Assembly: GCA_951406725.2 (NCBI GenBank)
Contig: OX597825.1
Span: 48,236,001-48,300,000, forward strand
Length of the DNA stretch: 64,000 nucleotides
DNA from: Octopus vulgaris
Taxonomy: Eukaryota
Reading direction: 5' to 3'
The stretch's first letter is position 1. Each line of letters begins with the position of its first letter. A model generated the notes under the pieces. It did not search any database and was not told the DNA's origin. It saw only the letters and a list, made by a program, of their open reading frames with translations. Below are positions 12,950 to 56,454 of this stretch, piece after piece. Both the position numbers and the translations under genes were made by a program.

Positions 12950-14880
12950 TATTAGGGAATAAATCCAAATTTACAAGGAAAAATCAGATTTAAGATTGAA
13001 TCCAATTTTATAATAAAATATTATATTATAATAAATTAGAGACAAAACCACTATTATGCAAATCAAACAAAGAAAGACTTAAGCCAATACATAAAATATA
13101 AAATAATTTATATAAATTAAAATTTAACAAATGAATAACCACTACGATCGTTTCGTGTCAGCACATCTTAGACATTCTTCAGGTGGTTTCTAAACCTAAA
13201 ATATAAAATATAATCAATATTTTTACGATATAAATATCTATATAATCTAAATAAACTCTATTATTAAATATGATTATATCGAAATCGACTATAATGTTAA
13301 ATATTAACTTTAATTTATAAGGTAGAAAAACCATATGCTAATATCCATTTTAGTCTATATCTACTTATATAGATATTTGAAATAACTAATATATATAAAT
13401 TATCAATGAAAATATATATAAAAAAATATTATAATCAAGATCTAAAATAGACTCTATAAACGATTGTATGTAATGAAAACCTAATATATTTAATTTCTCA
13501 TATTTAAAGATGAAATAGCTAATTTCAAAAAACAAAATATATATATACACACAAGCTCATGCACCTATATACATGTATGTATATAAACACATCCAAATAC
13601 GCACACAAACTCACACACACACATATATATCTACACACACACATATACATCTACACACACACATAAACATATAGACAGAGATATATCCATAATGCAGCCC
13701 TACACCTCTACACATCACCTATTCATACTCACACACACACACATACAATCACTCATTCATAAACATATACTCTCAACAGGACACTAACACAGAGGAGAAA
13801 TAACATCCAGTATCCGCAGATACTCAACCACATACTTATAGAAATATTTCATTCTTAGTTAAATAGTATTAAATACTATATACTATATATATGTAATAAA
13901 CATATATAAATACGTAAACAAACACACACACACATATATATCTATACATACACAAATTTAGTAAAATAGTATTAAATACTATATACTATATGTATATAAC
14001 ATATATAAACACGTAAACAAACACACACACACACACACACATATCTATACATACACAAACACATACAGACACGGACATGTTATAAATTCAGCCATATACC
14101 TCTACACATCAATTATGCACACCCGCACACACACACATACAATCACTCATACAAAAACGTATGTACACTGCACTACACTAACACATAGAAGAAATAACAT
14201 CAATAGCCACATATACACAACCACAAACTTATAAGAAATAATAGTGGTTTTGTCTCTAATTTATTATAATATATATATATATATATATATATATATATAT
14301 ATATATATATAATAGTGGTTTTGTCTCTAATTTATTATAATATATATATATATATATATATATATATATATATATATTAAATGTGTATTTTATTTAATTT
14401 TAAAGTATTTAATTATTGAAGTATTATTTTATTTTTCACTTATGTATATTTAGAATTTTCATACACACACACACACACACACACACACACATATATATAT
14501 ATATATATAAGTATATTAATTAATTAATTATTTTATTGTTCTATTTTATTTTTAACCTGATGAGTGACTATATTTATATGCAAGTGGTTTCTCTACTACT
14601 ATAATCATTTTTAAATATAGCAGCAAAGTATGTGTCATTTTTCTACCTATTATACATATTATATTATTTTTGTAATTTACTTAATCTTTACTTTTTATTG
14701 TTATTTTAATTTTAACTTTTCTATTACATGTAATTTTCTAGATGGTGTAATTTAATTATTCATGGTGTTTTTTTTTAATATTTTATATATATATTATATT
14801 GTGTGGAATTTGATTTAGTATTTCTAAATTGAATTCTTTTTCCTTGTAAGTTTCGATTTTATTCCCTCAAATAATAATTA
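12950..14880 (-). mobile_element. Non-coding Penelope-like remnant with an HHR and inverted terminal segments, in (TA)n
   Basis: HHR at 13137-13188. 13024-13057 recurs inverted at ~14239-14272 and ~14310-14343, and 14790-14880 is a diverged inversion of 12950-13030. Internal imperfect direct repeat (13660-13850 vs 14050-14240). Confidence 0.55.
13137..13188 (-). ncRNA. Type I hammerhead ribozyme (family A)
   Basis: Minus strand: AACCAC CUGAAGA AUGUC..GACAC GAAA CGAUCG UA GUGGUU. 6-bp helix I, palindromic helix III, GUA cleavage triplet. Confidence 0.8.
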
Positions 14881-15424
14881 TATATATGTGGTAAAGTAAA
14901 TTTTTTTGCTGAACCCTAATTATATAAAGTAATGTTTTATATATATATATATATATATATATATATATATATATATATATATATTTTATTTTGCATATAT
15001 GTTTTTTTCACCTGCTTACTTTTTATCGAATCGTAACTTTTCCTCCGACTTTGGCCTTGGTTATATATATGAGATGTCCTTGGTTATATACATATGAGAT
15101 GTAAGTCTGGTGTAGGTTTAGAGAGGGGTGTGAATAGAAAACTGTAATATATATATATATATTCTGTGACCGTCGTTGGCCAGCTAGAGATGCCTTCCTG
15201 GGGCTATAAACGCCAGTGGCACTGTCCTGTGTAAGATGCCACACTTGGTTGGCCCAAATATGTTATTGCTACTTTGTATGTGCAACCGTAGCAATAATCA
15301 TATTTACATGATTCCGTATTGCTACTGTTTGCATCTCGCTCAGAGATTTAATATAGCTGTATATATATATATATATATATATATATATATATATATATAT
15401 ATATATATTATTTATATGCATATA

Positions 15425-16001
15425 TATAAGGACCCCAAATTAAAGGAAATTCTAAACACACACCAAATCATTAAAAGCTACAAACAACCTAAATCACTTA
15501 AAAAGATTCTCACAAAGGCAAAATTGTTTTCTGAAATTACGGATGCAAAAGTAAAAAAATGTGGTAGACCGAACTGTGCAACATGTCCAAACCTACTAGA
15601 AGGATCAGAATTCCTCTTCAAAGAGGGACAGAAATTCAAGATCAAATCTAATTTTACTTGTGCCTCTGAAAACATAATTTATGTCATAAAATGCTCGGGC
15701 TGCCACCAACTACGTGGGGTCCATGGGACTATCATTCAGACGTAGATGCACACTGCATCGACAACAGATTGCATTCCCAGAATACAGAATGATACCCTTT
15801 AGTGAGCACATTGAGAAATGCGCAAAGCAACTACTATCACAATTTTTAATCTTTCCATTTGACCAATGTGCTATCGGAACACCAACACAAATTAGACTAA
15901 ACAAGGAAACATTCTTCATTGAAAAATACAAGCCCAAACTTAACCATTCCAACATTCTTATACAGAGAAACTCACTCCAAAAGAAAAGCAAGAAATATTA
16001 A
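15425..16001 (+). pseudogene. Penelope-like element C-terminus: Cys-rich linker and GIY-YIG endonuclease (Neptune-type), frameshifted
   Basis: KCGRPNCATCP..FTCASENIIYVIKCSGCHQ / YVGSMGLSFRRRCTLHRQQI..FSEHIEKC. The 5' end is truncated in (TA)n. Confidence 0.8.
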
Positions 16002-16174
16002 GCGATTATTTCCCTTACACCGGAAGAAATCACTTATTACCTCCCCTTATCTGGAACTCACTTTCACTCTCCTTCACACTTCTCAACGTAAACATAACGA
16101 TGTAAGAAATTTGAAAAGCTGAACGTGAAACCGGTCTTTCTTCAAAAACTATGTCATTGTATGAAAACAATTTA

Positions 16175-54009: not shown

Positions 54010-56265
54010 GCTGATGCACCGCCGTTTTGTGCTACACTGTTATTACGAAGAGCCTCCTCTAATATGAGGCACTTGGTGAAGAATGGAGTTTGATATAACT
54101 ACTCTCATTTGCACCTGGGACTCTCGACAGGAAGATGTCCAGCTTTCATTTAAAAACAGCTACATCTACTTTGTGCAAGCTCCTCAGACTCTTTGGGAGA
54201 ATATTAAAAAGCTGTGGGCTCTTGAAACCCAGGCTGTTGCAGTAGCTGGTCCTGAAGCGTGATGGCATTGCTGGGATCTTTGGCACTATGCAGTGTCGTC
54301 CCGTTCTAGCATTGGTGTAGCTTACAATGCCAAAATTTGGCACAATTCCTTCAGGATCTTCCAGACATATATTACAGCATACCTCTCCCGTCTACTCTCC
54401 AGGGTGTTGAGTCTTAGCTGTTTCAACCTTTCCCAGTAGCTGAGCTGTTGCAAAGAGACGATTTTTTTGTGAATCTTCTCTGGATTGCTTCAAGGTCCGC
54501 TGTTAATTTCACACTGGTGGGTGACCATAGCTGTGAGCAGTAATCCAGGCGGCTGAGGACGAATGTCCGCCAGAGGACCATCATGGTTTCCTTATCTCTT
54601 GTTCTGAATGTTCTTAGGATCCACCCAGCCAGTCGTCTGCACTTTGTCGCCATCCTGGTAATGTGCACTTGGAAAGAGGTATCCTCACTCATGTCGATAC
54701 CCAGGTCCCTCACAGACTTAGGCTCTGGGATTGAAATTCCCTGTGGACCAGTGTATCCTGTAAGTTTAATATTCAGTTTTGGATGCTGGTAGCGCAGGGC
54801 CTGGAATTTTTCAGCATTAAACTGCATATTATTATCCTCAGCCCATCTGTAGATTGAGCCCAACTCCTGCTGCCGGTTTGCAACATCGCTGGAGTTCTGT
54901 ATTTTCTGCGAGACTTTCGTATCGTCTGCATAGTTTGCCAGAGTTGCTATCCGGGCATTTGAGGGCATATCTGAGAGGGCCACTATAAAAAGGAGTGGTC
55001 CCAAGACAGTGCCCTGTGGAACACCACTCACTATTTGTGTGTTCATAGAGGTGGCTCCATTAACCACTACTGCCTGACTCCTATCTTTCAGGAAGTCATG
55101 TAACCACACTCCAAGTTTTCCAGCTATGCCGAGGTAACGTAGTTTGTGGCATATCATACCATGATCCACCTTGTCAAAAGCTCTTGCAAAATCAAGGTAG
55201 ATTACGTCCACATTTGATTTGTTGAGTAACTGCTTCAACACCCAGTCATAATGTTGTAAGAGCTGGGTCAGGCAGCTCCTACCTGGTCGAAAACCACACT
55301 GGGTATCACTCAGCAAGTTATTTTCCTCAAGGAAAGTGATTAGTTTCTTTCTGACTATCCGTTCCATGACTTTGCTGATGTGTGAAGTCAGAGAGATAGG
55401 CCTATAGTTTTTGGCATCTGCTCTACTTCCCCCTTTATGTATTAGGCATATTATTCCCTCCTTCAGCTTGCTTGGCAGTTTGCCATTTGTAAGAAAGCTC
55501 TGGAAGAGAATCTTGAGGGGTTTTGCCAGGGCATGCTTACACGCTTTGAGGAGGATTGCTGGGAAACCATCTGGACCAGCAGTTGAGTTTGTGTCCACTT
55601 CATCTATGGCTTGTAAGACATCTTCTTCGCTAATGTCAATACATTCTATTGTAACCGCCTCGCTAGTTATAGGTGAGGTGGCAAAGAAGTCCACTGGTTC
55701 GTTCACTTGTCTGTGTTCCAACGGGGTGGTAAAGACACTTTTGAACTGGTCATTCAGCATCTCACTGATCTTAGTTGGGCTGTCTGTGAGGGAGCCATCC
55801 TTTTGGAGGAGGGGTCCTATCTTGTAGTGTACTGAGACTGTTTCTTTCGCGTAATGAAAGAAGGCCTTTGGGTTTGATTTAATGTTTTTATAACCCAGGC
55901 TTCTTTGTCTGCTTTCTCCCTCACATAGGATTGTTGCAGCCTTTTTTCGATCTCCATCAGTGTTGTTTTTAGGCGGGACGTTTCGCTACTTTTGGGATGT
56001 TGGTTGAGACGATTTGCAACCTTCGTCTGTCCTCTCATGAGGATCTTCTTGTCTCTTGGAATCTTGCTCCTATTTCTTTTGGCCTTGTGCTCTGGGACAT
56101 ATTTCTGGCATACGGCTTGCACAGAAGACATGAAACATTCTAGTTTCATATCAATGTCTGGTGTGGAGAGACATTCCGGCCAGTCCTCTCTGAGGATCTC
56201 TTTTTGGATCGATTTCCAATCTGTTTTGTGGAAGTTCAGATTGGAGAGATTTCGGGTGCTTCCTT
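54010..56265 (-). mobile_element. CR1/L2-group LINE, 5'-truncated, with a 445-aa open RT segment (54423-55760)
   Basis: AGPDGFP; NYRPISLTSHISKVMERIV; Q.GFRPGRSC; YLDFARAFDKVDH; GVPQGTVLGPLLF; YADDTK; RDLGI. Confidence 0.9.
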
Positions 56266-56375
56266 TATATGTATATATATGTGTGTGTGTATAAAAAATC
56301 TTGACGTAATAGAGAACAATGAATTTCATTTTATGAGTCAGCACGTCAAAATTTCCAGGAAGCATGTCTCCAACA

Positions 56376-56454
56376 CCGCAGTGAGCATTACTGATGAGTA
56401 TTAATTTCCTATACGAAATTTTCATGCTAATATAATGCATCTCGCTTACTGTGG
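56376..56454 (+). ncRNA. Type I hammerhead ribozyme with an extended bulged helix I (family G)
   Basis: GCAUUA CUGAUGA GUAU uaauuuccu AUAC GAAA UU uucaugcu AA UA UAAUGC. Distal helix CCGCAGUGAG/CUUACUGUGG lies beyond a bulge. Confidence 0.8.

What the first reader, a model, noticed from the sequence alone, without database searches (positions are those of the whole stretch)
13137..56454. Hidden array of hammerhead ribozymes: 11 intact-looking motifs from ~7 families in 43 kb
Seen: CUGANGA/GAAA/UH cores (CCGACGA in family B) with pairing helices I and II at 13137(-), 16614(-), 21470(-), 21566(+), 31139(-), 38056(+), 38655(-), 38778(+), 41280(-), 42735(-) and 56385(+). Most lie in short non-coding elements inserted in (TA)n tracts. 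Established: Penelope-like elements carry minimal type I HHRs in their pseudo-LTRs, and metazoan retrozymes are HHR-bearing non-autonomous derivatives. Inference: this genome hosts a diverse set of self-cleaving, microsatellite-targeted non-autonomous retroelements mobilised by the Neptune-type RT/GIY-YIG seen at 15425 and 33978. Whether these families are already described cannot be judged here.
Basis: partly seen in the sequence, partly recalled or inferred. Interest (0 to 1): 0.88.

Follow-up and report, generated by a model that had tools for sequence, protein, structure and literature searches.

The report
Hammerhead ribozymes of Penelope-type jumping genes
The eleven hammerhead ribozyme motifs are real but belong to nine separate jumping-gene insertions, some of them cut-off ends of protein-coding Penelope-like elements and others short non-coding units that those elements likely copy, which is a known arrangement seen here in new and very abundant families.

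Summary
All 11 type I hammerhead motifs are present; shuffled windows give 0.1-0.2. They are not an array: they sit in nine independent insertions, two of them inverted pairs. The 38056 motif is the pLTR ribozyme of the same young Neptune element whose RT/GIY-YIG starts at 33978 (97% to full-length copies over 4.3 kb). 16614 and 42735 are truncated ends of a sister Neptune. A missed twelfth motif (U3-A8 core, ~16104) belongs to the element at 15425. Families C, D, E and F are 528-577-nt non-coding units with Penelope-type insertion marks: fixed 3' ends on (TA)n, 5' truncation, partial tandems, inverted partners. They look like non-LTR retrozymes; A and G are unresolved. Unselected DNA gives about 29 motifs per Mb (roughly 80,000 genome-wide) and at least 17 repeated families; the window is about five times denser. 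Rfam cut-offs miss all of them. Cleavage, circular RNA and the mobilising partner are untested. The kind is known (Cervera 2014, 2020; Li 2026), and this scan noted similar cases on other DNA. My searches found no report of these families for this octopus-like genome.

The parts
12948..14270 (-). Family A insertion (non-coding, 5'-truncated; family body at least 2.7 kb); hammerhead at 13135-13190
15408..16263 (+). 5'-truncated Neptune-type PLE (family H): GIY-YIG end 15428-15998 and pLTR, between (TA)n tracts
16104..16142 (+).
16499..17919 (-). Family B1: 5'-truncated 3' end of an older Neptune PLE; minimal hammerhead at 16614-16648
21288..21932 (.). Family C: one insertion of a 577-nt non-coding unit, forward copy 21564-21932 with inverted 5' partner 21288-21563; hammerheads at 21468-21562 (-) and 21566-21652 (+)
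30977..31888 (-). Family D: longer-than-unit copy (unit 551 nt) 30977-31701 with inverted partner 31702-31888; hammerhead at 31138-31216
33975..38181 (+). Family B2: 5'-truncated young Neptune PLE: RT/GIY-YIG 33978-35170, CA-rich 3' UTR, pLTR with the hammerhead at 38056-38090
38513..38870 (.). Family E: one inverted insertion of a ~530-nt non-coding unit; hammerheads at 38651-38741 (-) and 38775-38831 (+), both with a palindrome change
41038..41597 (-). Family F: copy of a 528-nt non-coding unit; hammerhead at 41280-41348
42635..42834 (-). Second family B1 stub; hammerhead at 42735-42769
56380..56577 (+). Family G: diverged stub (about 72% to relatives); hammerhead at 56383-56440, ending on (TA)n

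Best explanation
The motifs are type I hammerheads carried by nine separate insertions: truncated ends of protein-coding Neptune-type Penelope-like elements (family B) and short non-coding units (C, D, E, F) that Penelope-like proteins likely copy into (TA)n repeats. Shown: family structure, coding linkage for B and H, unit lengths, fixed 3' ends, 5' truncation and inverted partners. Inferred mechanism: a tandem copy is transcribed, and two hammerheads pair through the palindromic helix III and cut out a unit-length RNA, which is probably ligated into a circle. A PLE endonuclease nicks (TA)n, and the RT primes at a fixed internal site 110-300 nt past the cut site and copies back through the ribozyme, sometimes for more than one unit. 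Most resulting copies are single, truncated and probably inert. Families A and G follow the same insertion pattern, but their full form is not resolved.
For: Window 33980-38209 is 97.4% identical over 4,266 nt to full-length copy L213. In 4 of 5 full-length loci an identical hammerhead lies on both sides of an 883-1008-aa ORF at a ~6.2-kb period; the fifth has only the upstream one. B1: 4 of 6 long loci carry Neptune RT or EN pieces upstream on the same strand at about 70-89% identity. H: the motif region follows the ORF in 7 of 8 fetched loci. C repeats at exactly 577 nt in 6 of 30 loci (5 places); D at 488 and 551, F at 528, E at 532. No PLE-protein match lies upstream in these units, and no tRNA in 6 loci. 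A (TA)4+ tract starts at a family-fixed distance past the cut site: B 27 of 30 at 103-129 nt, C 25 of 30 at 281-301, E 26 of 30 at 129-150, A 26 of 30 at 187-212, G 16 of 30 at 176-201; background is 28% anywhere within 350 nt. 5' ends are scattered, and inverted partners are common. This is the PLE insertion anatomy described in PMC8557442. C, D and F units are strongly self-paired even without the ribozyme (z -5.6, -7.5, -4.4). Across 17 repeated families, helix positions use all four Watson-Crick pair types (partly circular because the descriptor asks for pairing).
Against: No cleavage or RNA-end data. In Li et al. only 1 of 9 predicted dimers cleaved, and PLE hammerheads were slow in vitro. 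The D, E and F unit lengths rest on 1-2 tandem loci each. The E unit is not self-paired (z +0.75; one copy with deletions). No shared sequence links the short units to the two Neptune pLTRs, so the partner is unknown. Families A, E and F lack G10.1-C11.1, and the active B2 motif has a U-U mismatch in helix I, so some motifs may be weak or dead. Only the 30-40 best copies per family were seen, out of 180-3,125 candidates.
Confidence: 0.8

Rival explanations
1. All motifs are merely pLTR stubs of truncated autonomous PLEs; there are no independent non-autonomous families.
For: True for B1, B2 and H. The B2 3' UTR is 2.9 kb long, so a 2.7-kb non-coding family-A body could be such a UTR. Earlier notes of this scan reached this reading on other genomes.
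Against: C wraps round at a constant 577 nt, and its long copies map wholly on the repeated unit out to -799 nt. D, E and F behave alike. No coding match lies upstream in 120 loci.
Confidence: 0.12
2. The hammerheads are inactive passengers: the elements spread from uncleaved read-through RNA and the ribozyme plays no part.
For: Copies read straight through the cut site. 0 of 30 full-length B2 copies start there. Several families have non-canonical core-adjacent pairs. Naiad PLEs spread without canonical hammerheads.
Against: The motif is kept while flanks diverge: 37 of 39 nt identical between B1 and B2 against about 70-80% around it; G matches at 84-89% over the motif against about 70% overall. 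Helices covary across families. A circular template also explains read-through.
Confidence: 0.25
3. The motifs are chance matches in AT-rich, repeat-rich DNA.
For: Rfam models score none at cut-off. The loose U3-A8 descriptor is at chance level in unselected DNA (3 hits against 1-3 in shuffles).
Against: 9-10 hits against 0.1-0.2 in shuffles; hold-out test; fixed position in repeat families.
Confidence: 0.01

Closest known systems
Minimal type I hammerheads in pLTRs of Penelope-like elements (Cervera & de la Pena 2014, PMC4209133; parts 1-2 of 4 read, one of its supplement files searched)
   Same: Family B has the extra base after A9, G10.1-C11.1 and a 4-nt palindrome. The paper also reports mostly single dispersed motifs from truncated PLEs, opposite-strand pairs 100-700 bp apart, and a U3-A8 core variant in Schistosoma like family H.
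   Different: B carries U4C, and B2 a U-U in helix I. H combines U3-A8 with a 2-bp helix II. The molluscs in the searched supplement are Lottia and Crassostrea, with no octopus.
Metazoan non-LTR retrozymes (Cervera & de la Pena 2020, PMC7229834, passages; de la Pena 2020, PMC7761336, passages; Li et al. 2026, bioRxiv 10.64898/2026.07.22.740005, parts 1-3 of 5)
   Same: Non-coding units with one type I hammerhead each, GC below 45%, tandem copies and monomers, predicted self-paired RNA, co-occurrence with PLEs.
   Different: Units are 528-577 nt, against ~150-400 nt in the 2020 papers, but inside the 51-972 range of Li et al. Copies are mostly dispersed, truncated, 1-2 units long, with clear PLE insertion marks. 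Several families lack G10.1-C11.1. Circular RNA is not shown here.
Neptune clade of Penelope-like elements (Craig et al. 2021, PMC8557442; passages and supplement rows)
   Same: RT followed by a CX2CX2C linker and C-terminal GIY-YIG, DKG motif, partial tandems, inverted 5' copy, (TA)n bias.
   Different: New families; the tail difference between forward and inverted copies is about 70-110 nt rather than 30-40 bp. The octopus rows seen in that supplement are Naiads.

Membership tests
Type I hammerhead ribozyme | CUGANGA / GAAA / NUH core with helices I and II, open at helix I | tested here: met
   variants U4C (B) and U3-A8 (H)
Type I hammerhead ribozyme | G10.1-C11.1 pair | tested here: inconclusive
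   Met in B, C, D, H and part of G; A-C, U-U, A-C fixed in A, E, F
Type I hammerhead ribozyme | Self-cleavage 3' of NUH | not testable with these tools
   No assay; contig data cannot show ends
Type I hammerhead ribozyme | Rfam Hammerhead_1 gathering score | tested here: not met
   0 matches in the window and 5 loci; 6 of 73 scored candidates pass elsewhere in the genome
Neptune PLE (families B2, B1, H) | Single ORF with RT, Cys linker and C-terminal GIY-YIG | tested here: met
   clade assigned by motifs, no tree built
Neptune PLE (families B2, B1, H) | pLTR with hammerhead in partial tandem | tested here: met
Non-LTR retrozyme (C, D, E, F) | Non-coding unit with one type I hammerhead, found in tandem | tested here: met
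   (C 5 places; D 2; E 1; F 1)
Non-LTR retrozyme (C, D, E, F) | Highly self-paired monomer | tested here: inconclusive
   C, D, F met (z -4.4 to -7.5), E not; one unit each
Non-LTR retrozyme (C, D, E, F) | Expressed as unit-length linear and circular RNA | not testable with these tools
   Only contigs of runs guessed to be RNA
Non-LTR retrozyme (A, G) | Short tandem non-coding unit | tested here: not met
   No tandem in 30 loci each; A body at least 2.7 kb

The most novel reading that the evidence does not exclude
This octopus-like genome runs a large retrozyme system: on the order of 80,000 hammerheads in dozens of families, with ~550-nt self-paired units made into abundant circular RNAs and inserted by a still-active Neptune RT/endonuclease. 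The insertion marks would be direct genomic evidence that Penelope-like proteins mobilise animal retrozymes from circular templates, and the young intact Neptune would give the parts to test it in vitro.
Probability: 0.4. Interest if true: 0.62.

Novelty: new member of a known kind. Interest (0 to 1): 0.42.

Why it matters
Two questions are stated as open in the papers read: what PLE hammerheads do in vivo, and which autonomous element mobilises animal retrozymes. This genome offers young non-coding units with PLE insertion marks beside a very young Neptune with many open reading frames (150 of 150 scored copies at 96-100% identity), which is good test material. It is also a large set of natural hammerhead variants that Rfam cut-offs miss. 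The kind of system itself is already described.

Tried and rejected
1) Rfam scan: no hammerhead at cut-off; the E-value run was swamped by microsatellite-miRNA matches. 2) Pile-up of 5' ends at the cut site as a footprint of cleavage: 6 of 30 family-C copies start within -2..+13 of a cut, with a few more in D and F, but 0 of 30 for B2 and 0 of 8 forward copies in a fresh C set. The window was chosen after looking and AT-rich microhomology confounds it, so it is not accepted. 3) Link between A17 and loss of G10.1-C11.1 across families: P = 0.04 over 25 clusters, P = 0.33 without the extra-base cores, families not independent; 15 weak singletons were dropped before the count. Not accepted. 4) Shared sequence between short units and Neptune pLTRs: none at E below 0.003 apart from B1/B2. 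5) RNA evidence: no RNA holder listed on record; contigs of four guessed-RNA runs cover the C unit but cannot show strand, ends or level. 6) (TA)n density as the cause of the local cluster: no visible relation over 15 blocks. 7) Coding upstream of family A: none found within 2.7 kb or in 10 further loci. 8) U3-A8 descriptor in unselected DNA: chance level, so family H rests on its homologues. 9) Lunse et al. 2017 could not be read (title only), nor the supplement of PMC7229834 or file 1 of PMC4209133; they may list cephalopod motifs. Repbase and Dfam were not available, so the families may already be catalogued under other names.
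Full report
Observation. All 11 motifs are at the stated places. Two descriptors found 9 and 10 of them, and together all 11, while dinucleotide shuffles gave 0.1-0.2 per window. A hold-out test left helix I out of the search: 19 of 23 hits in 800 kb of unselected genome still pair there, against 1 of 6 hits in six shuffles. Rfam finds nothing at its cut-offs in the window. Both E copies and the G copy have changes in the helix-III palindrome against their families.

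Genome. The window lies in a 2.8-Gb assembly of 227 contigs. Its size and microsatellite load, and SINE-like repeats that I recall from octopus, suggest an octopus; this is inference and was not tested. All seven families recur, with 180-3,125 first-look candidates each, of which 40 were scored and 30 fetched.

Not an array. The 11 motifs belong to nine insertions. In 15 blocks of 40 kb chosen blind there were 19 hits in 600 kb, and 6 in the 200 kb flanking the window, against about 1.1 per 600 kb in shuffles. That gives about 29 per Mb (18-44), or roughly 50,000-125,000 genome-wide, and makes the window about five times denser than average (P = 5e-5; the window was picked for this, so the P value is generous). 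The descriptor misses decayed and variant motifs, so the count is a lower bound for motif-derived DNA. All DNA in hand (2.0 Mb, mostly selected) gave 366 hits in 40 clusters, 17 with two or more members. For scale, the papers read give about 9,000 minimal motifs in Xenopus, about 5,000 in mussel, up to 120,000 retrozymes in axolotl, and 235 Rfam hits in giant squid.

Class 1, autonomous elements. The RT at 33978 belongs to a very young family: 150 of 150 scored copies are 96-100% identical, many in open frames of 880-1,060 codons. Full-length copies carry a hammerhead identical to the one at 38056 on both sides of the ORF, about 6.2 kb apart, in 4 of 5 loci. Window 33980-38209 matches such a copy at 97.4% over 4,266 nt. 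The motifs at 16614 and 42735 belong to an older sister family; 4 of 6 long copies show RT or EN pieces upstream. The element at 15425 is a second Neptune-type family (31% identical protein, same DKG, Cys-linker and GIY-YIG order). Its pLTR holds a hammerhead-like motif with a U3-A8 core, 7-bp helix I and 2-bp helix II, complete in 2 and recognisable in 7 of 8 fetched loci. The U3-A8 variant was reported in Schistosoma PLEs.

Class 2, short non-coding units. Family C repeats at exactly 577 nt in five places; D at 551 (and 488 with deletions), F at 528, E at about 530. Long copies map wholly on the repeated unit. No PLE protein match lies upstream and no tRNA was found. Their hammerheads have 8-12-nt helix-III palindromes and long helix-II inserts. 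C, D and F fold far better than shuffles even without the ribozyme; E does not. Families A and G showed no tandem in 30 loci each; A has at least 2.7 kb of non-coding body and could be a long 3' UTR.

Shared insertion anatomy. In each family the 3' end sits at a fixed distance past the cut site and meets (TA)n. 5' ends are scattered, and inverted 5' partners are frequent, ending 70-110 nt short of the forward copy. Craig et al. describe the same anatomy for PLEs. This is the main reason to infer PLE-driven insertion of the short units. No sequence link to the two Neptune pLTRs was found, so the partner is unknown.

Mechanism. Shown: structure and linkage. Inferred: dimer cleavage through the palindromic helix III (a folding model of two C motifs pairs the palindromes between molecules), release of a unit-length RNA, and probably circularisation. 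Copies keep an intact ribozyme, end 110-300 nt beyond it and can exceed one unit, so the template cannot be a linear monomer cut at both ends. It must be circular or uncleaved, as proposed in PMC4209133 and PMC7761336. A hint of 5' ends at the cut site in family C was not confirmed in fresh loci. Against activity: non-canonical 10.1/11.1 pairs in A, E and F, a U-U in B2 helix I, and low in vitro success in print. For activity: the motif is conserved while flanks drift.

Novelty. Dispersed PLE hammerheads, opposite-strand pairs and non-LTR retrozymes as likely PLE derivatives are all in print. Searches for octopus or cephalopod with hammerhead, retrozyme or Penelope returned no description of these families. 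One key paper, two supplement files and the repeat databases could not be seen. Earlier notes of this scan report the truncated-PLE reading on other genomes; my reading was formed before that call. Verdict: new members of a known kind, abundant and useful as test material; interest 0.42.

Noticed in passing
G000 genome-wide; e.g. L211-L217, L361-L390: Very young Neptune family B2: 150 of 150 scored RT pieces at 96-100% identity, many in open frames of 880-1,060 codons, and head-to-tail triples at a ~6.2-kb period; probably recently or still active.
   Followed up: partly
HHR clusters in all loci: 15 of 25 well-supported clusters lack G10.1-C11.1, mostly with an A at the cut position; the association is weak (P 0.04-0.33).
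   Followed up: partly
L302, L304-L307, L309, L310: Relatives of the family-A body share one boundary next to (TA)n and form large inverted structures; element type unresolved.
   Followed up: partly
window 2731-3069 (+): Exon-like frame with a weak nuclear-receptor ligand-binding-domain match (Pfam E 0.003), ending in a stop; likely the last exon of a host gene.
   Followed up: no
window 8783-11721 (+): Broken LTR-retrotransposon-like remnant with an integrase C-terminal / SH3 match.
   Followed up: no
window 45699-46516 (-) and 54423-56470 (-): A mariner transposase remnant in two frames, and a non-LTR RT open frame of 520 aa.
   Followed up: no
window 20591-20912: Tandem repeat with a 31-nt period, 74-84% alike.
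   Followed up: no
window 16382-16466 (-): Short inverted piece of the family-H pLTR beyond the (TA)n tract.
   Followed up: no
C31 loci L186-L192, L195, L196, L200, L201, L209: Many family-G copies on one small contig share kilobases of flank, which suggests segmental duplication; they inflate G counts.
   Followed up: no
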